NCBI RefSeq assembly: GCF_009834535.1
Contig: NC_045696.1
Span: 5,024,001-5,088,000, forward strand
Reading direction: 5' to 3'
From: Camelus ferus
Taxonomy: Eukaryota
Length of the DNA stretch: 64,000 nucleotides
Shown: positions 4,038 to 50,648 of the stretch, in pieces
How the letters are laid out: every line of letters begins with the position of its first letter
How positions within the stretch are numbered: the first letter of the stretch is position 1
Position numbers and translations under genes: made by a program
The notes under the pieces: model-generated
Told to the model about the DNA's origin: nothing
The model's database searches: none
What the model saw: the letters and a program-made list of their open reading frames with translations, nothing else

Positions 4038-4881
4038 TGGAGAGAGAGAGAGAGAGAAAAGAAATAGAGAAAGAGAAACAAACAAACAAAAAGAGAGAGA
4101 GGGAAGATGAGGGAGGGAGGCAGACAAGCAGGCAGGCAAAGAGGTCCTAAACAGTGTGATTAGTGAAGTTAATAGCAGAATATCAAAGATTAAGGAAAAA
4201 CTCCATTTCAAACAAGAAAAAATAAAATAAAATGCATTATATGGGATATGTTCTTTGACCACAATGTATGAAAAAATTGGATATTTGATTCCTGCTTAGA
4301 ATTCTTAAATAGATTGTCATGTCCTTCATGTTAAATCTAGACACCTTGGCCTGGCCCAGAAGGTCCTTCATGGTCTGCCCCAAGCCCCAGTCTTGACCTT
4401 TCCCAACATTTTCTCTGCAGTCCAGTTGTATGGAGCAACCTTAAGTTGCTCACATGATCCACACTGTATACCTCCGTGCCTTTGAATGTGCTGCCTTCTC
4501 TGCCTCAAACACCCTTCCTTGGACAGAAGTTCCAGAATTTTAGTCTCACATGACTACATGTATCAGCTACTACATGCCAACAATTGGGTCTACACAATTG
4601 AGACATGATCTTTGACCTCATGGAGTTCACCATCTGGAGGGGAGAGGTAGAGATGGAGTGAGGCATGGATAAAAATGTCCACTTGACAGAGTCTGAACTG
4701 AGAGGTGTGGCAGGAGTTGCAGGGAAATGCACTTGGTCCGCAGATGTTAAGGAGCAGTAGGGCTACAAAGCGCATGTAACTGACTTTGGGAGTGCTCAGC
4801 CCCCTGCCTGATTTATGAACAGACAGTTCTGCACATTGAACATGTGATGTCTTGCTACACATTTATAAGAGCAGCAGGATA

Positions 4882-5423
4882 TTTTTTTACCTTTTAAGGG
4901 TAAAATGTTATTTTTGAGAAACTTCATATTGCACATTTTCAAAGAGAGTCAGGAAAGAAAACAAAATGTTATCCTCCCCTCATCCTAGAAGTAAATAAGA
5001 AGGGCATACAATTTATTTTAAAATCACGACATTCGGAAGTTTAGCAACAGCATCCAAAATGAACAAAAAAAAAGGGGGGGGAAGAAAAACATTTAGTATA
5101 TATTTCAGATTTCTTTCACTGGGGGTCTCCCCATGTGGTGTTAATTTTTATTCTTTCAATTCATATTACCAAAACAGTACAGACCAGGGTTAAAATATAA
5201 ATCTATTGGTGGTTGAAACTGGGGTGGTTGCTCTCTTGTTCTTGAAGGCATTCCCAGGATCTCAGGTTCCTGGAAAAAATGGCTGATACTTTCCTTGTGT
5301 AGTTGTTCATTTTGTAAGGAATAATAGTAAACATTCTAATCTCCGCATCTTGGTTATTAGTCTTCCACTTCACTGCTGGACATTCCTTTGGTGTTGGTAA
5401 GGTTGTGGTCTGCTTTTTGCTTT
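4882..5423 (-). pseudogene. YBX3: Processed YBX3 (CSDA/DbpA) retrocopy, distal 3'UTR portion
   Basis: The minus strand reads gcaaaaagcagaccacaaccttaccaacaccaaag...gtggaagact...ccacatggggagacccc...gaaatctgaaatatatact...ctaggatgaggggaggataacatttt...ttttacccttaaaagg, then A7. This matches the YBX3 3'UTR as recalled. It continues seamlessly from the piece at 17541-17711 via the duplicated 13-mer. Confidence 0.8.
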
Positions 5424-5833
5424 TTTTTTTTTTTTTTTTTTTTGAGCACCTCCAGAGTCACTTTATTTTTTTTTTTTACATTTTTATTGAGTTATAGTCA
5501 GTTTACAATGTTGTGTCAATTTCCAGTGTAGAGCACAATTTTTCAGTTACACATGAACACACATATACTCATTGTCACATTCTTTTTCGTTGTGAGCTAC
5601 CACAAGATCTTGTATATATTTCCCTGTGCTACACAGTATAATCTTGTTTCTCTATTTTATATATGCCTGACTGTATCTACAAATTTTAAACTCCCAGTCT
5701 GTCCTTTCCCACCCCCTGTCCCCTTGGCAACCACAAGTTTGTATTCTATGTCTATGAGTCTGTTTCTGTTTTGTATTTATGTTCTTTTTTTTTTAATTCC
5801 ACATATGAGCAATCTCATATGGTATTTTTCTTT
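5424..5833 (-). mobile_element. 3' end (poly-A, 22-bp transduction, 3'UTR) of a twin-primed host L1
   Basis: T23 at 5421-5443, a unique 22 bp at 5444-5465, T12, then an L1 3'UTR homologous to 5840-6190. The element resumes at 12875 after the nested L1. Confidence 0.9.
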
Positions 5834-6160
5834 TTTTAACATTTTTTATTGATTTATAATCATTTTACAATGTTGTGTCAAATTCCAGTGTTCAGCACAA
5901 TTTTTCAGTCATTCATGGACATATACACACTCATTGTCACATTTTTTTCTCTGTGAGTTATCATAACATTTTGTGTATATTTCCCTGTGCTATACAGTGT
6001 AATCTTGTTTATCTATTCTACAATTTTGAAATCCCAGTCTATCCCTTCCCACCCTCCACCCCCCTGGTAACCACAAGTCTGTATTCTCTGTCTGTGAGTC
6101 TATTTCTGTCCTGTATTTATGCTTTGTTTTTGTTTGTTTGTTTGTTTTTGTTTTTGTTTT

Positions 6161-9100
6161 TTAGATTCCACATATGAGCGATCTCATATGGTATTTTTCT
6201 TTCTCTTTCTGGCTTACTTCACTTAGAATGACATTCTCCAGGAGCATCCATGATGCTGCTAATGGCATTATGTTGTCGGTTTTTATGGCTGAGTAGTATT
6301 CCCTTGTATAAATATACCACCTCTTCTTTATCCAGTCACCTGTTGATGAACATTTAGGCTGTTTCCATGTTTTGGCTATTGTAAATAGTGCTGCTATGAA
6401 CATTGGGGTGCAGGTGTCATCCTGAAGTAGATTTCCTTCTGGATACAAGCCCAGGAGTGGGATTCCTGGGTCATATGGTAAGTCTATTCCTAGTCTTTTG
6501 AGGAATCTCCACACTGTTTTCCATAGTGGCTGCACCAAACTGCATTCCCACCAGCAGTGTAGGAGGGTTCCCCTTTCTCCACAGCCTCTCCAGCATTTGT
6601 CATTTGTGGATTTTTGAATGACGGCCATTCTGACTGGTGTGAGGTGATACCTCATTGTAGTTTTGATTTGCATTTCTCTGATAATTAGTGATATTGAGCA
6701 TTTTTTCATGTGCTTTTTGATTATTTATATGTCTTCCTTAGAGAATTGCTTGTTTAGGTCTTCTGCATATTTTTGGATTGGGTTGTTTATTTTTTTCTTA
6801 TTGAGTCGTATGAGCTGCTTATATACTTTGGAGATCAAGCCTTTGTCGGTTTCACTTGCAAAAATTTTCTCCCATTCCGTAGGTTTTCTTCTTGTTTTAT
6901 TTCTGGTTTCCTTTGCTGTGCAGGAGCTTGTAAGTTTCATTAGGTTCCATTTGTTTATTCTTGCTTTTATTTCTTCTAGGAGAAAATTTTTGAAATGTAT
7001 GTCAGATAATGTTTTGCCTATGTTTTCCTCTAGGAGGTTTATTGTATCTTGTCTTATGTTTAAGTCTTTGATCCATTTTGAGTTGATTTTTGTATATGGT
7101 GTAAGGGAGTGTTCTAGCTTCATTGTTTTACATGCTGCTGTCCCGTTTTCCCAACACCATTTGCTGAAGAGACTGTCTTTATTCCATCGTATATTCTTGC
7201 CTCCTTTGTTGAAGATGAGTTGACCAAAAGTTTGTGGGTTCATTTCTGGGCTCTCTATTCTGTTCCATTGGTCTATATGTCTGTTTTTGTCCCAATACCA
7301 TGCTGTCTTGATGACTGTAGCTCTGTAGTATTGTCTGAAGTCTGGGAGAGTTATTCTTCCAGCCTCTTTCTTTCTCTTCAGTAATGCTTTGGCAATTCTA
7401 GGTCTTTGATGGTTCCATATGAATTTTATTATGATTTGTTCTAGTTCTGTGAAATATGTCCTGGGTAATTTGATAGGGATCGCATTAAATCTGTAGATTG
7501 CCTTCGGCAGTGTGACCATTTTAACAATATTGATTCTTCCAATCCAAGAGCATGGAATATCTTTCCATTTTTTAAAGTCTTCTTTAATTTCCTTCATCAA
7601 TGGTTTATAGTTTTCTGTGTATAATTCTTTCACCTACTTGGTGAGATTTATTCCTAAGTATTTTATTACTTTGGGTGCTATTTTAAAGGGGATTGTTTCT
7701 TTACTTTCTTTTCCTGTTGATTTATCGTTAGTGTAAAGAAATGCAACTGATTTTTGAACGTTAATTTTGTAACCTGCTACCTTGCTGAATTCTTCAATCA
7801 GCTCTAGTAGCTTTTGTGTGGACCTTTTAGGGTTTTCTATATATGGTAACATGTCATCAGCATATAATGACACTTTTACCTCTTCTTTTCCAATTTGGAT
7901 CCCTTTTATTTCTTTCTCTTGCCTGACTGCTGTGGCTAGGACTTCCAGGACTATGTTGAATAGGAGTGGTGATACTGGACATCCTTGTCTTGTCCCAGAT
8001 TTTAGTGGGAAGCTTTTGAGTTTTTCACTGTTGAGTACTATGCTGGCTATAGGTTTGTCATATATAGCTTTTATTATGTTGAGATATGTTCCCTCTATAC
8101 CCACTCTGGCGAGAGTTTTGATCATAAATGGGTGTTGAATTTTATCAAATGGTTTTTCTGCATCGATTGAGATGATCATGTGGTTTTTATTCTTTCTCTT
8201 GTTGATGTGATGTATTACATTGATTGATTTGCATATGTTGAACCACTCTTGTGTCCCTGGGATGAACCCCACTTGGTCATGATGTATAATCTTTTTTATG
8301 TGCTGTTGGACTCTATTTGCTAATATTTTGGTGAGGATTTTGGCATCTATGTTCATCAGTGATATTGGCCTATAATTATCTTTTTTTGTAGTGTCTTTGC
8401 CTGGTTTTGGTATCAGGGTGATGGTGGCTTCATAGAATGAGTTTGGGAGTACTCCCTCCTTTTCAATCGTCTGGAAGAGTTTGAGAAGGACTGGTATGAG
8501 TTCTTCTTTGTATGTTTGGTATAATTCCCCGGTGAAGCCGTCCAGTCCTGGACTTTTATTTGTAAGGAGGTTTTTAATTGCTATTTCTATTTCCTTTCTA
8601 GTGATCGGATTGTTCAAGTGTTCAGATTCTTCTTGATTCAGTCTTGGTGGACAGTATGTTTCCAGAAACTTGTCCATCTCCTCTAGGTTATCCAGTTTGG
8701 TTCCATATAGTTTTTCATAATATTCTTGTATGATATTCTGTATTTCTATTTTATTTGTTGTAATTTCTCCATTTTCCTTTCTTATTTTGCTAATTTGTGC
8801 TCTCTCTTTTTTCTTCTTTGTGAGTTTGGCCAGAGGTTTGTCGATTTTATTTACTTTTTCAAAAAACCAGCTTTTGGTTTGGTTGATTTTTTCTATGGTC
8901 TTGATAATCTCTATTGTATTTAATTCCTCTCTGATCTTTGTTATTTCCTTCCTTCTGCTGCTTTTTGGGGCTTTTTGTTCTTCTTTTTCTAATTCATTCA
9001 GGTGGTGGGTTAAATTGTTTATCTGAGATTGTTCTTCTTTTTTGAGGAAGGCCTGTATCGCTATAAACTTCCCTCTTACCACTGCCTTTGCTGTGTCCCA

Positions 9101-9955
9101 TAGGTTTTGAGTGGTTGTGCTTTCATTATCATTTGTCTCAAGGTATTTTTTAATTTCAGCTTTGATTTCCTCATTGACCCATTGTTTTTTCAATAACATA
9201 TTGTTTAATCTCCATGCTTTCCTTTTTTTCTCCTTTGTTTCTCTGTTGTTGATTTCCAGTTTCATGGCATTGTGGTCAGTAAAGATGCTTGAGATAATTT
9301 CTATCTTCTTAAAATTGTTGAGGTTTCTTTTGTGCCCAAGTACATGATCGATCCTGGAAAATGTTCCATGTGCACTTGAAAAGAATGTATATCCTATTTT
9401 TGGGGGGTGTAATGCTCTGAAAATATCCACCAAATCTAGTTTTTCTATTGTATTATTTAATTTCTCTGTTGCCTTGTTTATTTTCTGTCTGGAAGATCTG
9501 TCTAGTGATGTTAATGCAGTGTTAAAATCTCCAACTATGATTGTATTCCCATCAATATCCCCCTTAATCTCTGTTAGTAATTGTTCTATGTACTTAGGTG
9601 CTCCTATATTGGGTGCATATATATTAACGAGTGTAATATCCTCATCTTGTATCACTCCTTTAATCATTATAAAATGTCCTTCTTTGTCTTTCTTTATGGC
9701 CTTTGTTATAAAGTCTATTTTGTCTGAAATCAGTACTGCAACACCTGCTTTTCTGGCTTTTCCATTTGCATGGAATATCCTTTTCCATCCTTTCACTCTC
9801 TATATGTGTCCTTCTCCCTAAAGTGGGTCTCTTCTGTGCAGCATATTGAAGGTTCTTGCTTTATTATCCAGTCTGCCACTCTATGTCTTTTGACTGGAGC
9901 ATTTAGTCCATTAACATTTACAGTAATTTATGATAGATGTGTGTTTATTGCCCTT
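6161..9955 (-). pseudogene. L1 ORF2p (APE endonuclease + reverse transcriptase + C-terminal domain), disrupted
   Basis: Motifs: [41 protein letters not shown] (~7851-7868), YLGINL, CWRGC...HCWWEC. Lesions: an apparently lost ATG and a stop near 9930-9955, a frameshift near 9800, and in-frame stops at 7634 and 6725. Confidence 0.92.
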
Positions 9956-10361
9956 TTGAACTTATCTTTGCAGTTGAATTGGTATATCCTCTTTGTTCCT
10001 TTCTTCTTCCTTTTGTGGTTTGGTAATTTTCCTTTGTATTATCTTGGATTTTATTTATTTTTTGTGACTCCCTTGTAAATTTTTGGCTTGTGGTTACCCT
10101 TTTTTGTAAGTCTATTAGCCCATTACTATAACTGTTTTTATTAAACTGATAGTAACATGATCTCAAACCCCTCCTACTGTTAAAAAAAATTTAAAAAAAG
10201 AGAGAAAAAAAATATTCTATATTTCCCTGCCTCCCTCTCCCACTCTCAGTGATTTGTATGTCTTCTTTTATAATTTCGTGTTTATTTTATTTGTAATTCA
10301 TGAGTTATCACCTTTCCAATTGTGAGTTTCTCATTTCTGTAGCATCCTGCTGCTTTTCTAT

Positions 10362-11259
10362 TTAGAGTAGACCTGTCAATATTTCTTTTAGCATGGGTTT
10401 AGTGTTGCTAAACTCTTGTAGGTTTTTCTTGTCTGTGAAATTCTTTATCTCTCCTTCTATCCTAAATGATAGCCTTGCTGTATAAAGTATCCTAGGCTGC
10501 ATCATTCTTTCATTCAGGACTTTGAATATATGTTGCCACTCCCTTCTGGCCTGTAGTGTTTGTATAGAGAAATCAGCTGAGAGCCTTATGGGGGGTTCCC
10601 TTGTAACTCACTCTTTGCTTTTCTCTTGCTGCTTTTAGGATCCTTTCTTTATCCTTGACTCTGGCCATCTTGATTATGATGTCTTGGGGTGGGTCTGTCT
10701 GGGTTCTTCCTGTTTGGGACCCTCTGAGCTTCCTGTACTTGGATATCTGATTCCTTCTTTAAGTTTGGGACGTTTTCAGTCATGATTTCTTCAAAAACCT
10801 TTTCAATCCCCTTTGATCTTTCTTCCCCTTTTGGGACCCCTATTATGTGAAGATTGGCACGCTTTATATTATCCCATAGGTCCCTTATGCTATTTTCATT
10901 TGTTTTTATTTGTTTATCTTTAGCTCTTCTGATTGGGTGCTTTCTGTTGTCCTGTCTTCTAGGTCACTAATTCGTTCCTCTGCATTATCTAGCCAGCTTT
11001 GCACAGCCTTTAGATCATTCCTCATCTCAGCCAATGAGTTTACCAGTTCTACTTGGTTCTTCTTTATAGCTTCAATTTCATTTTTGACATATTTTATATC
11101 TCTAAACACTATCTCTTTTAGTTTCTTCAGTACTTTGATCACTCCTTTTTTGAAATCTTGATCTAGTAGGCCATCAATGTCTATTTCATTGATCTTTCTT
11201 TCAGGGGATTTCTCTTGTTCTTTTAATTGGTAATGCTTTCTCTCCTTCATCTTGCTCAT
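10362..11259 (-). pseudogene. L1 ORF1p (RNA-binding/coiled-coil), frameshifted
   Basis: MSKMKERKHYQLKEQEKSPERK...coiled-coil (ORF 10906..11259) ends early after a frameshift near 10910. Downstream ORF1-like coding sequence ends ...KEILTGLL* at 10362. Confidence 0.85.
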
Positions 11260-11689
11260 ACCTCTCTGGCACTGTGGTTTATGGAGTATCAGTTATCTAT
11301 TGTGGTCCTTAAGGAGTTTATCTATCTAATGAGTATGTAGGAATAAAACTTAGAAAGGAAAAAAAAAGAGAGAGAGAGAGAATTTTAAAAGAAGGGAGAA
11401 AAAAAGGTTTGAAAACAGTGTATAATGAATAATAGAAGAGCAAGTTGAAGCAGAATTTTTAAAAATAATAATAAAAATATTTTTTAAAAAATTTTAAAGG
11501 GATTAAAACTGGGTGTATATATAATTGTTTGAGAAGTAAAAATTAAAAGGGTAATACAAAATAGAACAGGTAAAACAGATTTAAAAGTAAAAGGGGGGGG
11601 GTCGGTGTTCTTCTGGAGACTGTGTGCTTTTAATGTGAAGTCTTTCTGTCTTCGTTCTGTTTTGGAAGCTCAGCTTGCTGTTTCCAGAG

Positions 11690-12874
11690 GCCCTCCATTG
11701 GCGCCCTCCTCTGTGCTGCTCCCAGTGCTGGTAGTCAAGCCGATCGCGCCTCCTCCCAACACGTGGTCAGGTGCAGCTCTCCTTTGCTGCGGACGGGCAG
11801 GTCACTGCCCCTCCCGATGCCTTAGTCAGATGTTGCAGACTGGCCAGGTAGGAGGGTGGGTCGCGCCCCCTCCCAGCACCACGGTCAGGTGCTCCGTTCC
11901 TGCCGGAAAGGCGGGGTGCCGCCTGCCCTCTCCCGGCGCCGTCGCTCCGCTGCTCTGTGCTGCTGCGCGCTCCGGGCTTTGCCTCCGGTCTGTGCTCCAC
12001 AAGGCGGGCTCTGGGAACACCAACGAACAGCCCTGTCCCTGCTCCGGGCCAAAACCCAGCTCCTTGTTTGTCTTGGCGGAGCAAGTTCTTTGAGGGACCA
12101 GGACAGAAGGATCCTGTTTGCCTCGGGCTGTAGACGAGTCTCCGTCTGGCCCTTGAGGCTGCTGAGCCCTTAGGTGCGGATGGGAGTTTTGCCCCCGCCT
12201 CCGCCTGCGTGCTCAGCGCAGGAGGATATGGCGGCTATGCCTGAGCCCCGCCTCTCTTTACCTGAAAACTTTGCACGGGTTTTCAGAGATGGGGTATGCG
12301 CCCTTACCCCTAGGGCACATCAGCCGTGCTGTTTCATGGAGGGCCCAGGTTGTTCTGGCCTGTGCACCCACAACCACGGCTCATAGCGCCCTGCGGTCCC
12401 CAGGGCTGCCTCAGTGCAGCCGTCGCCATCCTCCGCCCAGCTCGGGCAGCCTGACCCTGCCCCCAGCTGCTGGCCAGCGTCTTGGACTGGGTGTCACGGG
12501 GACCCTCTGTGCCTATTTAACTTAGTTCTGTCAGTCAAGGGCTGCTCTGTACAGATCTGAGCCTCGGAGGTTCCCCCTCCGACCCGCTGGCCTCTCGGTT
12601 GGAGAGGGGAGACCCAGCGAGCTAGCGCCAGTCCTCCTTTGCTGCTCTCTCCCCGTGGGACCCGTTCCGCTCTGTTTTGCCTTTTCTTCTTTCTTTTTTC
12701 CTTTTCTCCTACCAGATTTTTGGCGTCTTTGTCTTTTGAAGAGGGCGATGTTCTGTCGGAGTTCCGCAGGTGCTCTGGTTGGCTTAGTGGGTCTGTAGAT
12801 GTGGGTCTTGGTGTATCTGTGGGAGAGGGTGAGCCACAAGCGTCCCTCTACTCCGCCATCTTCTCCGTTCTCTC
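11690..12874 (-). promoter_or_regulatory. L1 5'UTR internal promoter region (CpG-rich) with a YY1-type motif
   Basis: AAGATGGCGG lies on the minus strand at 12853-12862, close to the element 5' end as is typical for L1 YY1 sites. CpG density is high. About 4 degenerate ~60-bp repeats at 11740-11950 share a cccctccc...gtcaggtg core. Confidence 0.8.
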
Positions 12875-13692
12875 TGGTATTTTTCTTTCTCTTTCTGGCT
12901 TACTTCACTTAGAATGACATTCTCCAGGGACATCCATGTTGCTGTAAATGGCGTTATGTTGTCGGTTTTTATGGCTCAGTAGTATTCCATTGTATAAATA
13001 TACCATCTTCTTTATCCAGTCATCTGTCGATGGACATATAGGCTGTTTCCATGTCTTGGCTATTGTAAATAGTGCTGCTTTGAACACTGGGGTGCAGGTG
13101 TCTTTTTGAAGTAGGGTTCCTTCTGAATATATGCCCAGGAGCAGGATTCCCAGGTCATATGGTAAGTCTATTCCTAGTCTTTTGAGGAATCTCCATACTG
13201 TTTTCCACAGTGGCTGCACCAAACTGCATTCCTACCTGCCATGTAGGAGGGTTCCCCTTTCTCCACAGCCTCTCCAGCATTTGTCATTGTGGACTTTTGA
13301 ATGATGGCCATTCTGGCTGGTGTGAGATGATACCTCATGTAGTTTTGATTTGCATTTCTCAGATAATTAGTGTTATTGAGCATTTTTTCATGTGCCTATT
13401 GATATTTGTATTTCTTCCTTGGAGAATTGCTTGTTTAGGTCTTTTGTCCATTTTTGGATTGGGTGTTTGTCTTTTTCTTATTAAGTCGTATGGGCAGCTT
13501 ATATATTCTGGAGATCAAGCCTTTGTCAGTTTCATCTTTTGCAAAAATTTTCTCTCATTCTGTACATTGTCATTTTGTTTTACTTTTGGTTTCCTTTGCT
13601 GTGCAGAAGCTTGTAAGTCTAATTAGGTCCCATTTGTTTATTCTTGCTTTTATTTCTATAGCTTGGGTAGACTGCCCTAGAAGAACATTTTT
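12875..13692 (-). mobile_element. Host L1, remainder of the non-inverted 3' segment (ORF2 C-terminus)
   Basis: Direct continuation of 5466-5833 (ggtatttttctttctctttctggcttacttcacttag...). It ends at an abrupt strand switch at 13692/13693. Confidence 0.92.
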
Positions 13693-14889
13693 GTACTCAA
13701 TGGTGAGAAACTCAAAAGCTTCCCACTAAAATCTGGACAAGACAAGGATGCCCACTATCACCACCCCTATTCAACATAGTCTTGGAAATCCTAGCCACAG
13801 CAATCAGGCAAGAGAGAGAAATCAAAGGGATCTAAACTGGAAAAGAAGAGGTAAAAGTGTCACTGTATGCAGATGACATGATACTGCATATAGAAAACCC
13901 TAAAAGGTCCACACAAAAACTATTAGAGCTGATTGAAGAATTCAGCAAGGTAGCAGGTTGCAAGATTAACGATCAAAAACCAGTTGCATTTCTTTACACG
14001 AACGATGAATCAACAGGAAAAGAAAGTAAAGAAACAATCCCCTTTAAAATAGCACCCAAAGTAATAAAATACTTAGGAATAAATCTCACCAAGGAGGTGA
14101 AAGAATTATACACAGAAAACTATAAACCATTGATGAAGGAAATTAAAGAAGACTTTAAAAAATGGAAAGATATCCCATGCTCCTGGATTGGAAGAATCAA
14201 TACTGTTAAAATGGTACACTGCCCAAGGCATTCTACAGATTTAATGCAATCCCTGTCAAATTACCCAGGACATATTTCACAGAACTAGAAAAAAGCATAA
14301 TAAAATTTATATGGAACCATCAAAGACCTAGAATTGCCAAAGCATTACTGAAGAGAAACAGAGTCTGGAGGAATAACTCTCCCAGACTTCAGACAATACT
14401 ACAGAGCTACAGTCATCAAGACAGCATGGTATTGGGACAAAAACAGACATATAGACCATTGGAACAGAACAGAGAGCCCAGAAATGAACCCACAAACTTT
14501 TGGTCAACTAATCTTTGACAAAGGAGGCAAGAATATACAATGGAATAAAGACAGTCTCTTCAGCAAATGGTGTTGGGAAAACTGGACAGCAGCATGTAAA
14601 GCAGTGAAGCTAGAACACTCCCTTACACCATACACAAAAATAAACTCAAAGTGGATCAAAGACTTAAACATAAGACAAGATACAATAAACCTCCTAGAGG
14701 AAAATATAGGCAAAACATTATCTTACATACCTCTCAAAAATATTCTCCTAGAACAGTCTACTCAAGCAATAGAAATAGAAGGAAGAATAAACAAATGGGA
14801 CCTAATGAAACTTACAAGCTTCTGCGCAGCAAAGGAAACCATAAGCAAAACAAAACGACAACCTACAGAATGGGAGAACATTTTTTGCA
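13693..14889 (+). mobile_element. L1 ORF2 RT segment on +: inverted piece of the twin-primed L1 / left arm of the inverted repeat, plus a ~150-bp tail from the partner L1 fragment
   Basis: Reads [11 protein letters not shown]...SLYADDM...YLGINL...EWENIF. 13693-14740 is the reverse complement of 17712-18760. Confidence 0.9.
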
Positions 14890-17540
14890 GATAAAATTCA
14901 ACATTCATTTATGATAAAAATCATGAATGTGGATACAGAGGGAACATATCTCAACATAATAAAAGGTATTTATGACAAACCCAACATAACATTCAACAGG
15001 GAAAAGCTGAAAGCCTTCCTGTTAACGTTTGGAACAAGACAAGGAGGCCCACGCTCACCGCTTCTATTCAACATAGTATTTGAATAGCAATCAGATAAGA
15101 AAAAGAAAGAAAAGGATCCAAATTGGAAGGAAACAGGTAAAACTGTCACTATATGCAGATGACATGATACTACGTATAGAAAACCACAGAGACTCCACAC
15201 AAAAACTACTAGGACTGATAAACCAATTTAAAAAGGTAGCAGGACCCAGGATTAACACACAGAAGTGCAGGACAAACCTGATTTAGGAATAAGCCAGACC
15301 AAGGAGTTGAAAGACTTACATGCTGAGGACTATAAAATACTGACAAAGGAGACTGAAGATGATTCAAAGAAATGGAAAGACATCCCATGCTCTTGGATTG
15401 CAAGAATTAATATTGTCAAAATGGCCACACTATTCAAAGCATCTACAGATTTAATGTGACCCCTATCAAATTACCCATGACATTTTTTAGAGAACGAGAA
15501 CAAACAATCCTAAAATTTATATGGAACCACAAAAGACCCAGAATTGCCAAAGCAATACTGAAGACAAAGAATGAAGCTGGAGGAATAACCCTCTCAGACT
15601 TCAGACAATACTACATGGTATTGGCAGAAAATCAGACATATGGAGCAATGGAACAGAATAGAGAGCCCAGAAATAAACCCACACACCTATGGCCAATTAA
15701 TCTTTGACAAAGGAGGCAAGTATATACAATGGAGAAAAGCCTATTTCTTCAGCAAGTGATGTTGGGAAAACTGGACAGCCACATGTAAATCAATGGAGTT
15801 AGAACACTCTCTCACACTGCATACAAAAATAATCTCAAAACAGCTTAAAGACTTGAGACTGAAAAATATTGCCTGCTATATCAGTAAACAAAGGATCTTG
15901 CAGCCGTCAAGCCACTACAGCTGTCCCCAACAGTGAGCCCTGAGGGAAATGAGGATGGAGACAAATGGGCTCCCTGTTGCCAAGCCCTCAGCCACTGCAG
16001 CCATCCCTAATGGTGCATCCAGAGGGGCTCAGAATGGGAAAGAAAGAACAGTACGTTGGCCCTGGACAGCTAAGGTGCACATCACAGGAATGATTTCAAT
16101 GAGCCCAGACTCTTGCATCTTCCTATACATAGACAAGTGCTAAATTTATTTACTTCAGATACCTGATTTTCTTTAATTAACAGTAATCTTTTGATGTTCC
16201 AACTACCTGGTCTTTGTTGCAAAAGCCCCTGTGTATCGTGGCTCCTCCCTTACCTCTTCAGAGCAGTTCCCCAGAGCTATTCTGAGAGGCTGCTTCTTGG
16301 GCCTGAAGTCCTCAGAAAGTCTGTCAAATAAAACATAATTTTCAACTTTTAGGTTGTACATTTCTTTTTAGTCAACAGACAAATATAAGACCTGACACCA
16401 TAAGCTCCTAGAAGAGAATATAGGCAAAACATTCTCTGACATATATTGTAGCAATGTTTTCTTAGGTCAGTCTCCCAAAGCCAAAGAAATAAAAGCAAAC
16501 ATAAACAAATGGGACCTAATTAAACTTATAAGGTTTTGCACAGCAAAGGAAACAATAAACAAAACAAAAAGACAACCTACGGAATGGGAGAAAATATTTG
16601 CAAATGATGCAACTGACAAGGGCTTGATTTCCAAGATATACAAACAGCTCGTATGATATAAAAAAAAAATCCAATCCAAAAAATGGGCAGAAGACCTAAA
16701 TAGACATTTCTCCAAAGAAGACATACAGATGGCCAATAGGCACATAAAAAGATGCTCAATATCACTAATTATTAGAGAATGCAAATCAAAACTATAATGA
16801 GGTACCACCTCACACTGGTCAGAATGGCCATCATTAAAAAGTCTACAAATAATAAATGCTGGAGAGAATGTGGAGAAAAGGGAACTCTCCTATACTGTTG
16901 GTGGGAATGTAATTTAGTGCAGCCACTATGGAAAACAGTATTGAGGTTCCTCAAAAACCTAAAAATAGAGTTATCATATGATCCATCAATTCCACTCCTG
17001 GACATATATCCAGAAAAAAGGAAAACTCTAATTAGGAGAGATGCATGCACATCAAGTCCATAGCAGCACTATGTACAGTAGCCAAGACATGGAAGCAACC
17101 TAAGTGTCCACTGACCAATGAATGGATAAAAGAGTAGTGGTATATTATATGCAATGGAATACTACTTGGCCATAAAAAGAATGAAATAATGCCATTTGAA
17201 GCAACATGGATGGAACTAGAGATCATCACACTAAGTTAAGTAAGTCAGAAAGAGAAAGACTAATATCACATGATATCACTTACATGTGGAATCTAAAAAA
17301 AATGACACAAATGAGCTTATTTACAAAACAGAAATAGACTTACAGACATGGAAAGCAAACTTACAGTTACCAAAGAGGAAAGGAGTCTAGGAATAAATTA
17401 GGAGTTTGGGATTAACTGACACATACTACTATGTATGAGTAGATAAACAGCAAGGACCTACTGTACAGCACAGGGAACTATATTTGATATCTTGTAATAA
17501 TCTATAATGGTATAGAATCTGAATATATATATATGTATTA
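14890..17540 (+). mobile_element. Older cetartiodactyl-type L1 (ORF2 3' half + 3'UTR), interrupted by a solo LTR
   Basis: Starts with gataaaattcaacattcatttatgataaaa. SLYADDM at ~15145, CWREC...CWWEC at ~16857-16910, and a 3'UTR with aatgagcttatttacaaaacagaaatagac...ctactgtacagcacagggaacta. It lacks the terminal ~60 nt and poly-A. Confidence 0.88.
15854..16377 (+). mobile_element. Solo ERV LTR (~524 bp, probably ERV1 class) inserted in the older L1
   Basis: TG...CA termini with imperfect inverted ends (tgagactgaaaaa / tttttagtcaaca). AATAAA at 16327-32. Apparent TSD GACT/GAC(A). The L1 sequence aaagact|aaatataagac rejoins across it. Confidence 0.8.
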
Positions 17541-17711
17541 CTTTGCAAGATGGCAAAGAGACTGAAGCAGGTGAAGCACCATATGAGGACTCTGCTCCAG
17601 CCACCAAACAGAGCAGTGCTGAGTAACACCAGGCTCCCCAGGCACCTTCATCATCAGCAGATGACCTAAAGGATTAATTACTGTTCAAAAAATGAAACAA
17701 AGAAAAAAGCA
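17541..17711 (+). pseudogene. YBX3: Processed YBX3 retrocopy, C-terminal codons plus proximal 3'UTR (5'-truncated)
   Basis: 17546-17626 translates as QDGKETEAGEAPYEDSAPATKQSSAE*, against the recalled YBX3 C-terminus QDGKEAKAGEAPTENPAPPTQQSSAE*. It is followed by caccaggctccccaggcaccttca...gacctaaag, and has no introns. Confidence 0.85.
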
Positions 17712-19472
17712 TTTCTGAGACATATGTGAGATAATGTTTTGCCTATATTTTCCTCTAGGAGGTTTATTGTATCTTGTCTTATGTTTAAGTCTTTGATCCA
17801 TTTTGAGTTTATTTTTGTGTATGGTGTAAGGGAGTGTTCTAGCTTCACTGCTTTACATGCTGCTGTCCAGTTTTCCCAACACCATTTGCTGAAGAGACTG
17901 TCTTTATTCCATTGTATATTCTTGCCTCCTTTGTCAAAGATTAGTTGACCAAAAGTTTGTGGGTTCATTTCTGGGCTCTCTGTTCTGTTCCAATGGCCTA
18001 TATGTCTGTTTTTGTCCCAATACAATGCTGTCTTGATGACTGTAGCTCTATAGTATTGTCTGAAGTCTGGGAGAGTTATTCCTCCAGACTCTGTTTCTCT
18101 TCAGTAATGCTTTGGCAATTCTAGGTCTTTGATGGTTCCATATAAATTTTATTATGCTTTTTTCTAGTTCTGTGAAATATGTCCTGGGTAATTTGACAGG
18201 GATTGCATTAAATCTGTAGAATGCCTTGGGCAGTGTACCATTTTAACAGTATTGATTCTTCCAATCCAGGAGCATGGGATATCTTTCCATTTTTTAAAGT
18301 CTTCTTTAATTTCCTTCATCAATGGTTTATAGTTTTCTGTGTATAATTCTTTCACCTCCTTGGTGAGATTTATTCCTAAGTATTTTATTACTTTGGGTGC
18401 TATTTTAAAGGGGATTGTTTCTTTACTTTCTTTTCCTGTTGATTCATCGTTCGTGTAAAGAAATGCAACTGGTTTTTGATCGTTAATCTTGCAACCTGCT
18501 ACCTTGCTGAATTCTTCAATCAGCTCTAATAGTTTTTGTGTGGACCTTTTAGGGTTTTCTATATGTAATATCATGTCATCTGCATACAGTGACACTTTTA
18601 CCTCTTCTTTTCCAGTTTAGATCCCTTTGATTTCTCTCTCTTGCCTGATTGCTGTGGCTAGGACTTCCAAGACTATGTTGAATAGGGGTGGTGATAGTGG
18701 GCATCCTTGTCTTGTCCCAGATTTTAGTGGGAAGCTTTTGAGTTTTTCACTGTTGAGTGCTATGCTGGCTGTAGGTTTGTCATATATAGCTTTTATTAGT
18801 TTGAGATGTAGTCCCTCTATACCCACTTTGGTGAGAGTTTTTATCATAAATGGATGTTGAATTTTATCAAGTGCTTTTTCTGCATCGATTGAGATGATCA
18901 TGTGGTTTTTGTCCTTTCTCTTGTTGATGTGATGTATTATATTGATTGATTTGCATACATTGAACCACTCTTGTGTCCCTGGGATGAACCCCACTTGGTC
19001 ATGATGTATAATCTTTTTTATGTGCTGTTGGACTCTATTTGCTAATATTTTGGTGAGGATTTTGGCATCTATGTTCATCAGTGATATTGGCCTATAATTA
19101 TCTTTTTTGGTAGTGTCTTTGCCTGGTTTTGGTATCAGGGTGATGGTGGCTTCATAGAATGAGTTTGGGAGTATTCCCTCCTTTTCAGTCTTCTGGAAGA
19201 GTTTGAGAAGGACTGGTATGAGTTCTTCTTTGTATGTTTGGTATAATTCCCCAGTGAACCGTCCAGTCCTGGACTTTTATTTGTAGGGAGGTTTTTTGTT
19301 GCTATTTCTATTTCCTTTCTAGTGATCGGTTTGTTCAAGTGTTCAGATTCTTCTTGATTCAGTCTTGGTGGACAGTATGTTTCCAGAAACTTGTCCATCT
19401 CCTCTAGGTTATCCAGTTTGGTTCCATATAGTTTTTTGTAATATTCTCATATGATATTCTGTGTTTCCATTT
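17712..19472 (-). mobile_element. Young L1 ORF2 internal fragment (right arm of the inverted repeat plus ~700 bp of upstream ORF2)
   Basis: Reads [17 protein letters not shown]...[14 protein letters not shown]...GTRQGCP...SLYADDM...[11 protein letters not shown]. Roughly 95% similar by eye to 7000-8750. No poly-A. Confidence 0.92.
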
Positions 19473-19640
19473 AAATGCTTTTCCTGCATCTATTGAGATG
19501 ATCATGTGGTTTTTGTCTTTTCTTTTGTTGATGTAGTATATCACATTAATTGATTTGCATATGTTGAACCAACTTTATAATCCTGGGATGAATTCAACCT
19601 GATCATGGTGTATGATTTTTTCTATGTGTTGTTGGATTCC
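19473..19640 (-). mobile_element. 5' stub of the older L1 whose remainder is at 14890-17540
   Basis: The minus strand ends ...atctcaatagatgcaggaaaagcattt, which joins without a gap to gataaaattcaac at 14890 ([14 protein letters not shown]). Confidence 0.85.
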
Positions 19641-19649
19641 TTTTTTAAA

Positions 19650-20250
19650 ATCAGTTATAATATCACATGTTGGCAAAGCTGTGGAGAAACTGGGTCTCTC
19701 ATACATTGCTGTAAAATGGTGCAACCACTCTGGCAAATAGTTTGGCAGTTTCTTATAAAACTAAGCATGCACTTATCACACAACCCAGCAATCACACTCC
19801 TGGGCATTTACCCCAGAGACATGAAAAAAATATGTTCCCCCAAAGACCTGTACATGAATGTTCATAGCAGCTTTATGTATTATAGCCAGATTCTGGGGAG
19901 AAGCCAAATGTCCTTCAAAAGGTGAATGGTTGAAAAGTCTCTGGTTCATCCACACAACGAAATACTGTTACTTAGCAGTGAAAAGAAATGAACTGTTGAT
20001 ACATGTAACAACCTGGATGGGCCTGAAAGACATGCTTAGTGAAAACAGTTGATCTCAAAAAGTTATGTTTAATCTCAAAATGACAAAACTGCAGAGATGA
20101 AGAATCATTTAACGGTTACCAGGGGACAGGGAGGGCTGGTGTGGGCCAGGTGCAGATATGAAGAGGTAGCAACAGGTGCTGCTTTCGTGGTGATGGGGTG
20201 GTTGTGTGCATTGCCTGTGGTGATGAGTTACTATCAGATAGTTACTTAGA

Positions 20251-38559: not shown

Positions 38560-38928
<369 letters not shown>

Positions 38929-40309: not shown

Positions 40310-40702
<393 letters not shown>

Positions 40703-47359: not shown

Positions 47360-48133
47360 AAAATCCTTCTAAATAGCACATTCTTTCTCTCTCCTCCTCT
47401 TGACCTCTGGCTGAGGAATCCACCCTCCAGCGTTTTGAACCCTATTCTAATAGTCTTGATCACTGGCATCATCTCTTTCTTTCAAAACATAATCAGTAAA
47501 GGATTTGAGACTAAATGATTTCAAAAAGTAGAACTGAGAAGTCCATCTGATGAGCAGTGTTGATGCTGGAGACTGAGACTAGAGTTTCTGTAAGTGTTTC
47601 ATTGTCAACGCTCTCCTTTTGGAGAAGAAGGGATCTGACCTGCTCCAGGTGTCGCTGGTTTTCAAATACCTTTTAGAACAAGGGTTTTGTTTTTTTCTTT
47701 GTTTTTTTTTTTTTTTTTCCTTTTGGGTGAAGGGCTGTTCAAATGGTAATTTCTTTTATTATCTTGTACAATGAGTGCTCAAAAGTGGCTGTTCTTCAGT
47801 TTCCTGGCCTGAGATCCCCTGCTTGTATTCTCCTCTGAGATCTCTGCCAGGAGGTCTGTAGTGTTGCCTCAGATGTCCCTCCCTGAACTCAGCTGCCCCC
47901 AGCACTTGTCCCCCTCCGCATGGATAATGAGTGTGTGGTGTCCTGCCCCCTCTGATGGCCAGCCCACCTGAACACTGGGAGCATTGCTTTGAGAATTCGC
48001 TTTGAGTTGTAACTTTTTTTCTTTCCTTCTTTCTTTCTTTCTTTTTTTTAAATTCCTACTTGTGAACTTTCAAAGGCAGAGGGAAAAAACTCATGTCTCT
48101 ATCTCTTCTTTTTTGAAAAACAAAACCCAAAAG

Positions 48134-48301
48134 ACTCCTGGGATTCCGCTCAGAGAACCAAAGATGTTTCCCCTCAGCTGAACTCGGCCACCATCATTGA
48201 TATCCACCCTTCCTCCACCTACAGCATCCGCATGTACGCCAAGAACCGGATCGGCAAGAGCGAGCCCAGCAACGAGCTGTCCATCACTGCGGACGAGGCA
48301 G
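48134..48301 (+). CDS. DSCAM: DSCAM coding exon (168 nt; C-half of FnIII repeat 1)
   Basis: Encodes (D)[55 protein letters not shown]. Acceptor aaAG (48132-33), donor CAG|GTGGGT. Phase 1/1. Confidence 0.96.
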
Positions 48302-50648
48302 GTGGGTCTGCCGGCCAGGCAGGGCCCAGGCGCCGGGAGCTGGCTCGCGGGGCTCAGGCGGTCAGTGCGGGACCCCACCTTTGATGGCTGCTCCCCACGG
48401 CTCCATGCCCAATCAGAAACATAGACGGCGCTCTGCCTCCTACTGGGAAGGCTCTGCTCGTCAAACAGGACTTAGGCCAAGGTTCTCATAGCTAAGACTT
48501 AAAAGAAAGACATACGAGGCTAATAGTCTGGTGAGATTTAAGAACCGTGCTGTTCTCATGGTGCCTGGTCTGGATGCATGGAGAACCATGACCGTATGTC
48601 TTGTCCGAGTCCCTGTGCAGCCTGCTGAGGGAGTGTCGCATAACTAGGGAGCAGCAAGAACATTCTCTGTGTGGGGAGTTGGGGACGGTAGCACTGGTTA
48701 TTTTGTTGACTGGAAATGTCAGTATTCCTAGAATAAACTGTATTGCTCTTTTTCATGTTACAAAGTATTTCGTATTCAGTGTCGAAAACTTAGAAGATTT
48801 TGAAGACAAAACAGCTTACAGTCCTACCACCAGGAGTTACCCTGAGCATGTCGATGTCACTAACTTGTTCAGCACACACGCATGCGTGCACGCTCACCCG
48901 CGCAGACACACAGACAGGCGCGCGCACACACACACACGCCCTTCAACACGGGGGTCCGCTCATGATTACGCGGTGACAATAGCCTGTTTGTGGAGGACTG
49001 AGCGGTTAGGCAGAGGCAGTGACTGCTGACTGTCAGCCCTCCTCCCGGCAGGAGAGGAAGAAGCAGGTTGCCCTTGGGCTTCTCTGGGGCAGAAAAGGTC
49101 AGGAACCAAGGCCTGGCTCATCTCTAGGGGCAGAAGAGTGTCCAGCCCCAAACCTAGCTTTTCTTCTCCTGCCCCTAATCAGGGCTTCGTCAGCCAGTCC
49201 CTGCTGTGGAGGGGAAGCTGGAAGCCTAGTCTCAGATCCATAGCTGCCCATCTCCAAGACTAACGTGATCGCGCCTAAATGACGGAGCTTCCGCAAGAGG
49301 CCAGATGCCTCCTTCACCTGGGGTCGTCCTTGGTGCTCCCCCACCAACTTCTCAGTTACTCTCATCAATGGACTTGGAATAGGTGTCACTCTTCCGTATC
49401 TCTTAAGTGCTTCCTACAACTTGTGTTCATACCTTCCAGCATTTCATTCAAACAAATCCCATATCGTTAAGTAAGTCAGTTATCTTCTATTTTTCATAAT
49501 CATCAGCACTACTGCAGTGAACACCCTTGTGATATATCTCTTACCATTTCCGGCATGATTTTTCATGTAAATTCCAAGACGTATGATGGCTGGATCAAAG
49601 CAAATGCAAAAATGACTCTTTTGATAGGCATAGTCAACATGGTCTTCAAGGATGTAGGTTAAAATTTACTGTTTTTCCTGTATCCATTTCTCAACTCTGG
49701 AACTTGTCGGTTCTTGAAAATTGTTTCCACGGGCAGGTGGCAGGGTAGCTGCGCCCTCCTGTGTCCGAGGGTGAGCCGCTTCCAGCACTTGGCAAGCCTG
49801 CGTGGCTTCTCATCCTGCAGAATGAGCGTAATGCCTCTCTCCTCCTCACCGCACGCAAGTTGGAGAACTGAAAAAAACTCCAGTCTCCGAAAGTCCTTTG
49901 CATGCTCAGAAACAAGTAGGAAATGAGTGTTCATAGGCTTCTGCAAAAACAGAGTATTATTTAAATATTTATGTAAACAATGCACTCACGTCCTGGAATT
50001 TCATCATGCTGGAGATTTAGGGAGAATAAGCCGCCTCCGAAAGGAAAACGCTGGCTCAGAGCTGAACCTTCTTCCTTTACCCACTTTTCCACTCTTCCCA
50101 TCTCGACAACCTTCTCAAGGTAGCCCTGTTTTCCCGGCAATGCCTTTCGAGCTGCTTTCCCAGTCGCCATGACAAAGGCAGCTGTGGTTGCTTTTCCTGC
50201 TGTCTCTTCGGTGACCTCCCTGCAGCCAGCTGTTGCCATGGTAACGTGCTTTTCTTCAGCCAGGAGGCAGGTGAACAGCCGCGCCTGGTCGCTGGGCACC
50301 AGCATGCAGTCCACTCCCAGCATCTCCGCAGACACACAGATGCAGAGCCACTTCCTTGGCTCCGGGGCCGGCCTTCTGGGTTTTCCCCAGGTGCTGGCTG
50401 CTGGCGGCCGCACAGCCCCTCTCATTTACTACTCAGATGAGCTAAGGGAACATGCAAGGAAAGGAAAGGCTTGAGCAAAGGAAAGCTACAAAGCAGAATT
50501 TGGCTTTGTCTGGGTGTGTAGCTTTGTGTGATAGAAATGAAAAAGTTTCCTCTGACTCATAGAACAGAGGGGAGCTCTCCTGACCAAAGACACCCTCTCC
50601 AGAACTTCCCACAGGTGTTGACCACACATTGCTCCTGCCCTCTCCTGG

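What the first reader, a model, noticed from the sequence alone, without database searches (positions are those of the whole stretch)
13693..18760. ~3 kb intronic inversion between two inverted L1 arms, shown by four junction markers
Seen in sequence: (1) The YBX3 retrocopy is cut in two with opposite orientations, 5' part on + at 17541-17711 and 3' part on - at 4882-5423. (2) The TSD pair of the L1 that split it is in opposite orientation: TGCTTTTTGCTTT at 5411-5423 (+) and TGCTTTTTTCTTT read on - from 17711 to 17699. (3) The older L1 is also split and opposed: the stub 19473-19640 (-) ends gatgcaggaaaagcattt and continues exactly as gataaaattcaac at 14890 (+). (4) The twin-priming breakpoint of the host L1 (aaaaatgttcttctaggg at 13692) matches the end of the right arm (tctcagaaatg at ~17710), not the left arm. 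Inference: flipping ~14.7-17.7 kb restores all four continuities, as expected for non-allelic recombination between inverted L1s inside a DSCAM intron. The inversion may be polymorphic or recurrent.
Basis: partly seen in the sequence, partly recalled or inferred. Interest (0 to 1): 0.75.

Follow-up and report, generated by a model that had tools for sequence, protein, structure and literature searches.

The report
Small inversion between inverted L1 copies
A 3-kb piece of a DSCAM intron lies flipped between two nearly identical, oppositely oriented LINE-1 fragments, a well-known kind of rearrangement that this locus lets us reconstruct base by base.

Summary
All four junction markers are in the sequence at the stated coordinates. 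Two 1,048-bp L1 arms (13694-14741 +, 17711-18758 -) are 98.57% identical and bracket 2,969 bp. Reverse-complementing 14742-17710 in silico does three things at once:
- It makes an old L1 collinear, joined exactly at L1 positions 4724|4725.
- It fuses two L1 pieces into one 1,910-bp alignment.
- It puts both halves of a processed Y-box retrocopy on one strand.

The parent gene on another chromosome shows that the two retrocopy halves are contiguous, with a 13-bp overlap that is the target-site duplication (TSD).

The arms have been homogenised. Eight of 15 mismatches lie in the terminal 32 bp (P about 4e-9). No other scored genomic copy exceeds 95% identity to the arm.

My best reading (0.55) is non-allelic recombination between the inverted half of a twin-primed L1 and a second, 3'-truncated L1 fragment, followed by gene conversion. 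The rivals are a single L1-insertion-coupled inversion (0.2) and assembly mis-orientation (0.15).

Orientation in the animal, polymorphism and recurrence are therefore untested. This is a known kind of event (retrotransposon recombination-mediated inversion) and of modest interest. The scan earlier noted an analogous retroelement nest, which I judge non-orthologous, in a DSCAM intron of another genome.

The parts
4882..5423 (-). 3' part (3' UTR and short poly(A)) of a processed retrocopy of a Y-box gene. Its last 13 bases (5411-5423) are TSD copy 1 of the L1-X insertion.
   Evidence: 83% identity to the last exon of the parent on G000:C34. TSD read.
5424..5833 (-). Tail of L1-X: poly(A), a 22-bp insert between two A-runs, and the L1 3' end.
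   Evidence: 5466-5833 aligns to the 3' end unit of L1A (5827-6202). It continues at 12875 once the nested L1A is removed.
5834..12874 (-). L1A, a full-length younger L1 nested in L1-X. It has a GC-rich 5' UTR and its ORF2 is broken into several frames. It is not part of the inversion and was used as the coordinate reference.
   Evidence: 14-bp TSD TGGTATTTTTCTTT at 5820-5833 and 12875-12888. Sequence; ORF list.
12875..13692 (-). L1-X 3' segment, L1 reference positions about 5880-6692. It ends at the twin-priming junction.
   Evidence: 89.7% identity to L1A. It begins at AAAAATGTTCTTC.
13693..14741 (+). Left inverted-repeat arm (L1 positions 4833-5885).
   Evidence: 98.57% identity to the right arm.
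14742..14888 (+). 3' continuation of L1-Y (L1 positions 5886-6014), carried with the flipped segment.
   Evidence: it fuses with 17711-19472 into one 1,910-bp alignment after the flip.
14889..17547 (+). Main body of the old L1 (positions 4725 to near the 3' end). It holds a solo LTR at 15854-16380 and lacks about 55 bp of the family's 3' end.
17548..17711 (+). 5' part of the retrocopy: the last 25 codons ending QSSAE*, plus the start of the 3' UTR. Bases 17699-17711 are TSD copy 2.
17711..18758 (-). Right inverted-repeat arm (L1 positions 5885-4833).
18759..19472 (-). 5' continuation of L1-Y (L1 positions 4832-4121).
   Evidence: 95.6% identity to L1A.
19473..19639 (-). Stub of the old L1 (positions 4724-4558).
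   Evidence: The junction at 19472/19473 is unique in the genome.

Best explanation
The 2,969 bp at 14742-17710 are inverted relative to the arrangement in which the local retroelements originally inserted.

Inferred history:
1. An old L1 lay on the minus strand, with a processed Y-box retrocopy next to its 3' end.
2. L1-X inserted into the retrocopy by twin priming. It has a poly(A) tail, a 13-bp TSD, a 3' segment, and an inverted 5' segment covering L1 positions 4833-5885.
3. A second fragment, L1-Y (positions 4121-6014), was copied into the old L1 exactly between positions 4724 and 4725. It was probably primed internally on the L1 RNA from a T-rich nick. It has no poly(A) and no detectable TSD.
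4. L1-Y and the inverted part of L1-X were then 1,048-bp inverted repeats about 3 kb apart. A crossover between them (non-allelic homologous recombination) flipped the DNA in between.
5. Gene conversion between the arms, before or after the flip, made their interiors 99.3% identical and left only the arm edges diverged.

Shown: the flip, the junctions and the homogenisation. Inferred: the order of events, the crossover, and that the assembled orientation is the animal's.
For: - Arms: 1,033 of 1,048 identical.
- One in-silico flip turns 5 old-L1 alignments on + and 1 on - into 6 on -, in monotone order 7156 to 4558. It merges L1-Y into one 1,910-bp alignment and puts both parent-gene matches on -.
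- Old-L1 pieces abut at 4724|4725.
- Retrocopy halves are contiguous in the parent gene with a 13-bp overlap, and the TSD matches 12 of 13. Chance is about 3e-5 under a crude model.
- The L1-X 3' segment starts within about 6 bases of the point where the right arm ends. That is the relation twin priming predicts.
- Arm edges are diverged and interiors are not: 8 of 15 mismatches lie in the terminal 32 of 1,048 bp, P = 4e-9.
- The non-repeated overlap of L1-X and L1-Y is only 87.5% identical (19 of 152 mismatches), against 15 of 1,048 in the arms, P = 1e-9.
- All 38 other scored genomic copies are 91-95% identical to the arm.
- Junctions 14885-14889 and 19472/19473 occur once among the 40 scored hits each.
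- This class of event is documented: 49 RRMI loci (21 L1-mediated), sizes 166 bp to 81 kb (PMC2603318, sections read).
Against: - No outgroup or second individual was examined, so the ancestral order is inferred only from internal markers.
- L1-Y is non-canonical: 3'-truncated, no poly(A), no TSD. Such insertions are rare, and finding one exactly where an arm is needed favours a single-event origin.
- L1-X and L1-Y are about equally diverged from 27 younger copies once regional variability is allowed for (92.4% against 93.6-94.7%). Two independent insertions are therefore not demonstrated.
- Which arm departs from the family majority shows only a non-significant trend (6:2 outer against 2:4 inner, Fisher P = 0.28). 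The crossover point is not located.
- The model needs an added assumption, gene conversion, to explain 98.6% arm identity.
Confidence: 0.55

Rival explanations
1. One complex L1 retrotransposition event made the inversion. Target-primed reverse transcription at the retrocopy site produced a double-strand break. A second break occurred in the old L1 3 kb away. The freed 3-kb fragment primed L1 cDNA synthesis from both of its ends and was religated in reverse. L1 pieces therefore sit at both inversion junctions from the start, and the arms were later kept alike by gene conversion.
For: - It explains in one step why the L1 at the old-L1 site has no poly(A), no TSD, a 3' truncation and microhomology (GAT.AAA) at the junction.
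- L1-X and L1-Y have similar divergence from 27 other copies.
- L1-induced genomic inversions of about 0.9-3.3 kb at insertion sites, and twin-primed cDNAs on separate break ends, are reported in cell models and tumours (bioRxiv 10.1101/2024.12.14.628481, passages read).
Against: - It needs three cDNA pieces whose L1 ranges overlap (5880-7447, 4121-5885, 4833-6014). That means at least two RNA templates and two breaks.
- The second 'twin-priming' pair would overlap by about 134 bp, whereas the first overlaps by about 6 bp.
- L1-X on its own, after the flip, is a textbook twin-primed insertion.
- I saw no germline example of this form. Only the cited preprint's passages were read.
Confidence: 0.2
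2. Assembly mis-orientation. The animal's DNA is collinear, and the assembler placed the 3-kb piece backwards between two arms that share a 516-bp identical stretch.
For: - The sequence of a mis-oriented assembly would be identical to that of a true crossover product, so nothing in the window can exclude it.
- The arms are 99.3% identical in their interior.
- No reads could be laid.
Against: - The 64-kb window has no N.
- It carries a 7-kb full-length L1 that is 96-97% identical to at least 13 other copies over 2.6 kb. This suggests long-read contigs, and reads of that kind would span the whole 5.1-kb structure.
- No alternative contig holding the inner segment exists in the 2,043-contig assembly. 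The LTR and the retrocopy 5' part each have one 100% hit.
Confidence: 0.15
3. Duplicative inversion by staggered breaks or template switching. Only L1-Y existed, and the left arm is an inverted copy made during the inversion.
For: The arms are far more alike than either is to any other scored copy.
Against: - A fresh duplicate should diverge evenly, but mismatches pile up at both arm edges (P = 4e-9).
- One break would have to fall exactly at the L1-X/TSD boundary.
- The other break would have to fall within about 6 bases of the homologous L1 position. Twin priming explains that coincidence and this model does not.
Confidence: 0.05

Closest known systems
Retrotransposon recombination-mediated inversion (L1-RMI), Lee et al. 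2008, PMC2603318
   Same: Inverted L1 copies span both breakpoints. Each arm is a chimaera of two elements. No sequence is gained or lost. The size is within the reported range (166 bp to 81 kb).
   Different: - The event is inferred here from internal markers in one genome, not from a two-species comparison.
- One parent element is only the inverted half of a twin-primed L1.
- The other parent is a 3'-truncated fragment without TSD.
- The arms have since been homogenised.
Twin-primed (5'-inverted) L1 insertion (Ostertag and Kazazian 2001; cited in the reference list seen, paper itself not read)
   Same: After the flip, L1-X has a poly(A), a 13-bp TSD, a 3' segment and an inverted 5' segment. 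The outer end of the inverted segment abuts the start of the 3' segment in L1 coordinates.
   Different: In the present sequence the inverted segment's two ends sit on different arms 4 kb apart.
Inverted-repeat-mediated polymorphic, recurrent inversions (Aguado et al. 2014, PMC3961182, abstract read)
   Same: Highly identical inverted repeats flank a short segment, and exchange between arms is evident.
   Different: The human cases had 1.6-24 kb repeats and were genotyped in populations. Here the arms are 1.05 kb and no population data exist.
L1-induced inversions by exchange or remodelling of ORF2p-made break ends (bioRxiv 10.1101/2024.12.14.628481)
   Same: A kilobase-scale inversion adjoins a TSD-bearing L1 insertion, with L1 sequence at both junctions.
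   Different: Those events are somatic or experimental. The form needed here (three cDNA pieces) is not among the passages I read.

Membership tests
L1 recombination-mediated inversion (RRMI) | Homologous L1 sequences in opposite orientation span both breakpoints | tested here: met
   13695-14741 against 18758-17711: 1,033 of 1,048 identical.
L1 recombination-mediated inversion (RRMI) | The segment between the arms is inverted relative to the ancestral order | tested here: met
   Three internal markers become collinear after one flip: the old L1, the retrocopy with its TSD, and L1-Y. The parent gene serves as an independent reference. No outgroup genome was available.
L1 recombination-mediated inversion (RRMI) | Arms are chimaeras of two pre-existing elements, with the flanks of one element split between the arms | tested here: met
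   The twin-priming junction is on the left arm's outer edge. The TSD junction of the same L1 is on the right arm's inner edge. L1-Y continues from the other two edges.
L1 recombination-mediated inversion (RRMI) | The two parent elements inserted independently before the inversion | tested here: inconclusive
   Their unconverted overlap is 87.5% identical. Both are about equally far from 27 other copies. A common origin in one event is not excluded.
L1 recombination-mediated inversion (RRMI) | A pre-inversion allele exists in a sister taxon or population | not testable with these tools
No vertebrate relatives are held. The metagenome scan was empty.
Twin-primed L1 insertion (L1-X) | Poly(A) tail, flanking TSD, and an inverted 5' segment whose target-side end abuts the start of the 3' segment | tested here: met
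   Poly(T) at 5420-5445. TSD 12 of 13. Overlap of about 6 bases at L1 positions 5880-5886. This holds only after the flip.
Endonuclease-independent or internally primed 3'-truncated L1 insertion (L1-Y) | No poly(A), no TSD, 3' truncation, microhomology at the junction | tested here: met
   L1-Y spans positions 4121-6014 of a 7,447-bp reference. The old L1 is continuous at 4724|4725. Family homology runs 8-13 bases past 14885. Whether the endonuclease made the nick cannot be told.
Processed retrocopy of YBX3 | Intronless copy of the YBX3 mRNA | tested here: inconclusive
   The copy is intronless and matches a multi-exon gene on C34. That gene has split cold-shock-domain exons. The name YBX3 rests on my recollection of the C-terminal ...QSSAE. 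PF00313 gave no hit on C34 among its 15 matches.
DSCAM intron | The locus lies between DSCAM exons on the gene's strand | tested here: inconclusive
   The Ig exon ORF at 38560-38928 (+) matches PDB 6zr7 'Down syndrome cell adhesion molecule' at E = 2.4e-41. Fn3 ORFs lie at 40310-40702 and 48052-48381. No upstream exon was located, so 'intronic' is inferred from the matched residues being internal to the protein.

The most novel reading that the evidence does not exclude
The locus is a germline fossil of a single L1-retrotransposition-coupled inversion. Two breaks 3 kb apart exchanged ends while L1 cDNA was primed from both ends of the freed fragment. That would give evolutionary evidence for a mechanism so far described in cell models and tumours. 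The resulting inverted L1 arms have since been kept alike by gene conversion and could still toggle the segment.
Probability: 0.2. Interest if true: 0.55.

Novelty: new member of a known kind. Interest (0 to 1): 0.3.

Why it matters
It is a clean, fully reconstructable example of how nested retroelements record a small inversion. Four independent junction markers, one of them checked against the parent gene, agree on the same flip.

It also shows concerted evolution of short (1-kb) inverted L1 arms. Such arms are the substrate for recurrent flipping.

The segment holds only dead repeats in an intron and no exon was seen in it, so a functional effect on DSCAM is unlikely. Its main use would be as a phylogenetic or population marker in this lineage. 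With related genomes, it could also serve as a test case to separate recombination-mediated from insertion-coupled inversions.

Tried and rejected
- **Read evidence.** Nothing was laid. I also judge that k=31 contigs could not have linked across the 516-bp identical stretch.
- **Fifth marker.** I asked whether the missing 55-bp 3' tail of the old L1 lies beyond the retrocopy at 4770-4890 (-). In an alignment with 19 family copies it did not align. No support.
- **Crossover mapping.** I tallied which arm departs from 28 other copies at the 16 differences. The trend is not significant (Fisher P = 0.28).
- **Age difference between L1-X and L1-Y.** None is clear after allowing for regional variability.
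- **Old-L1 split as the old L1's own twin priming.** I rejected it because the stub lies on the wrong side of the main body for that, and because it leaves the retrocopy halves unexplained.
- **One long L1 (4121 to poly(A)) interrupted by a 4-kb block.** Rejected because it makes the retrocopy overlap and the 4724|4725 adjacency coincidences.
- **Paralogue or alternative haplotig with the other orientation.** None was found.
- **Host contigs in metagenomes carrying the TSD/arm junction.** 0 matches.
- **Sampling 200 kb of flanks for gaps.** Not pursued.
- **PF00313 search to name the parent.** 15 matches, none on C34. The parent's cold-shock exons were found instead by tblastn.
Full report
**What is there.** A self-comparison of the window shows an inverted repeat: 13695-14741 (+) against 18758-17711 (-). 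It is 1,048 bp long and 98.57% identical, and it encloses 2,969 bp (sizes). I used the full-length L1 at 5424-12870 (minus strand, 7,447 bp, 'L1A') as a coordinate ruler. On that ruler the local pieces are:

| Window | Strand | Piece | L1 positions / note |
|---|---|---|---|
| 12866-13657 | - | L1 3' segment ('L1-X') | 5897-6692; sequence extends to 13692 |
| 13693-14885 | + | L1 (left arm plus continuation) | 4833-6011 |
| 14890-15256 | + | older L1 | 4725-5111 |
| 15283-15854 | + | older L1 | 5214-5809 |
| 16381-17383 | + | older L1 | 5810 onward; split from the previous piece by a solo LTR |
| 17711-19472 | - | L1 (right arm plus continuation) | 5885-4120 |
| 19473-19639 | - | older-L1 stub | 4724-4558 |

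**Check of the four markers.**

- **(1) and (2), retrocopy and TSD.** The two retrocopy halves were searched separately in the window's own genome. Both hit one locus on contig C34. Base-level BLAST places window 17658-17711 on L012 1459-1512. It places the reverse complement of the other half on L012 about 1490-2038. The halves are therefore contiguous in the parent with about 13 bp of overlap. The overlap is the duplicated target: AAAGAAAAAAGCA and AAAGCAAAAAGCA, against parent TAAGCAAAAAACA. A parent intron is missing from the copy, so the copy is processed. The parent has split cold-shock-domain exons. The encoded tail ...QSSAE* fits my recollection of YBX3, but no database call named it.
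- **(3), old L1.** The old L1 pieces abut at 4724|4725 on opposite strands.
- **(4), twin-priming point.** The L1-X 3' segment starts at AAAAATGTTCTTC. The right arm ends at TCTCAGAAATG. The two overlap by about 6 bases in L1 coordinates. The left arm instead continues for about 147 more bases of L1.

**The flip.** I reverse-complemented 14742-17710 in a script and repeated the BLAST. This gives:
- all old-L1 alignments on the minus strand, in monotone order from 7156 down to 4725;
- then a single 1,910-bp alignment of a second L1 ('L1-Y', positions 4120-6011);
- then old L1 4724-4558;
- both parent-gene matches on the minus strand.

One operation therefore removes three discontinuities. It also turns L1-X into a standard twin-primed insertion, with a poly(A), a 13-bp TSD, and an inverted 5' segment whose target-side end meets the start of the 3' segment.

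**Context that had to be cleared first.** The 7-kb L1A is a later, separate insertion inside the tail of L1-X. It has a perfect 14-bp TSD at 5820-5833 and 12875-12888. That explains why L1-X's poly(A) (5424) and its 3' segment (12875-13692) are 7 kb apart.

The junctions of L1-Y with the old L1 are unique in the genome. In each of two searches, only the self-hit among 40 scored hits crosses the junction.

An Ig-domain ORF at 38560-38928 (+) matches a solved DSCAM chain at E = 2.4e-41. Two Fn3 ORFs follow it (150 of 739 ORFs were scanned, the longest ones outside 4800-19950). The locus lies upstream of these exons. An intronic position is likely but was not closed by an upstream exon.

**The arms have been homogenised.**
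- Of the 15 mismatches, 4 lie in the outermost 14 bp and 4 in the innermost 18 bp. The central 1,016 bp are 99.3% identical (binomial P = 4e-9, or 2e-7 with wider edge windows).
- Where L1-X and L1-Y overlap outside the repeat (positions 5878-6011), they are only 87.5% identical: 19 of 152 mismatches, against 15 of 1,048 in the arms, P = 1e-9.
- The 38 other scored genomic copies are 91-95% identical to the arm.

The arms' likeness is therefore due to exchange between them, not to common descent from a recent source. An even-aged duplicate would not show diverged edges.

**Mechanism.** The conventional reading is non-allelic homologous recombination between the inverted half of L1-X and L1-Y. 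This is the class called RRMI in human-chimpanzee comparisons: 49 loci, 21 by L1, 166 bp to 81 kb, with chimaeric elements at the breakpoints (PMC2603318, abstract and two Results sections read). Every defining feature that one genome can show is met.

The weak point is L1-Y. It is 3'-truncated at position about 6014, has no poly(A), and sits in the old L1 with no duplication or loss. The sequence at the junction allows priming of an A-rich internal site of the L1 RNA from a ...TTTT(ATC) 3' end, with 8-13 bases of imperfect homology. That makes it a possible, though rare, insertion.

A rival that absorbs this oddity is a single insertion-coupled inversion by exchange of break ends. Such events were recently described in cells and tumours (bioRxiv 10.1101/2024.12.14.628481, passages only). 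It needs three overlapping cDNA pieces and two breaks. Divergence data do not separate the two models: against 27 other copies, L1-Y scores 93.6-94.7% and L1-X 92.4% in a more variable region.

**What could not be tested.** It is unknown whether the assembled orientation is that of the animal, and whether it varies.
- The runs on offer were k-mer contigs, which in my judgement could not bridge the 516-bp identical core anyway.
- A mis-oriented assembly and a true crossover give the same letters.
- Indirect points against an artefact: there is no N in 64 kb, a 7-kb young L1 is assembled through, and no second contig holds the inner segment.

**Earlier scan note.** Note e1-665505 describes a nest of an old twin-primed L1, an LTR and a full-length L1 in a DSCAM intron of another genome. 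Its elements are primate families, so I judge it non-orthologous. It led me to test whether the old-L1 split here is itself twin priming. I rejected that on geometry.

**Verdict.** The inversion relative to the ancestral order is strongly supported. NAHR is the most likely mechanism but is not proven. Polymorphism and recurrence are open. It is a new member of a known kind, of modest interest.

Noticed in passing
5834-12874 (-): A full-length L1 (about 7 kb) with a GC-rich 5' UTR and a perfect 14-bp TSD (5820-5833 / 12875-12888), nested in the tail of L1-X. Its ORF2 is split into at least three open frames (721, 302 and 187 aa), so it is broken. It is 96-97% identical to at least 13 other copies over 2.6 kb.
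   Followed up: partly
5420-5479: The L1-X tail has two A-runs (26 and 12 bases on the L1 strand) separated by 22 unrelated bases. This looks like a very short 3' transduction or a tail rearrangement.
   Followed up: no
38560-38928, 40310-40702, 48052-48381 (+): ORFs with Ig and Fn3 domains. The first is near-identical to a solved DSCAM chain (6zr7). The third has a sub-threshold match to the DSCAM/DSCAML C-terminal Fn3 family. They are probably consecutive DSCAM exons.
   Followed up: partly
17480-17547: The old L1 stops at TACTTTGC, about 55 bp short of its family's 3' end, where the retrocopy begins. The missing tail was not found on the far side of the retrocopy.
   Followed up: yes
15854-16380 (+): A solo LTR (TG...CA) inserted in the old L1 between L1 positions 5809 and 5810. 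The family has 4,078 first-look candidates in the genome, and 40 scored copies are 76-85% identical.
   Followed up: partly
G000:C37:2527118-2527321 and 2548717-2548920: Two cold-shock-domain hits with identical scores, each in a 377-aa open frame, 21.6 kb apart. They may be a tandem pair of intronless Y-box-like genes, distinct from the parent on C34.
   Followed up: no
19664-19929 (+): A further, much older L1 fragment (67% identity to L1A) directly right of the old-L1 stub.
   Followed up: no
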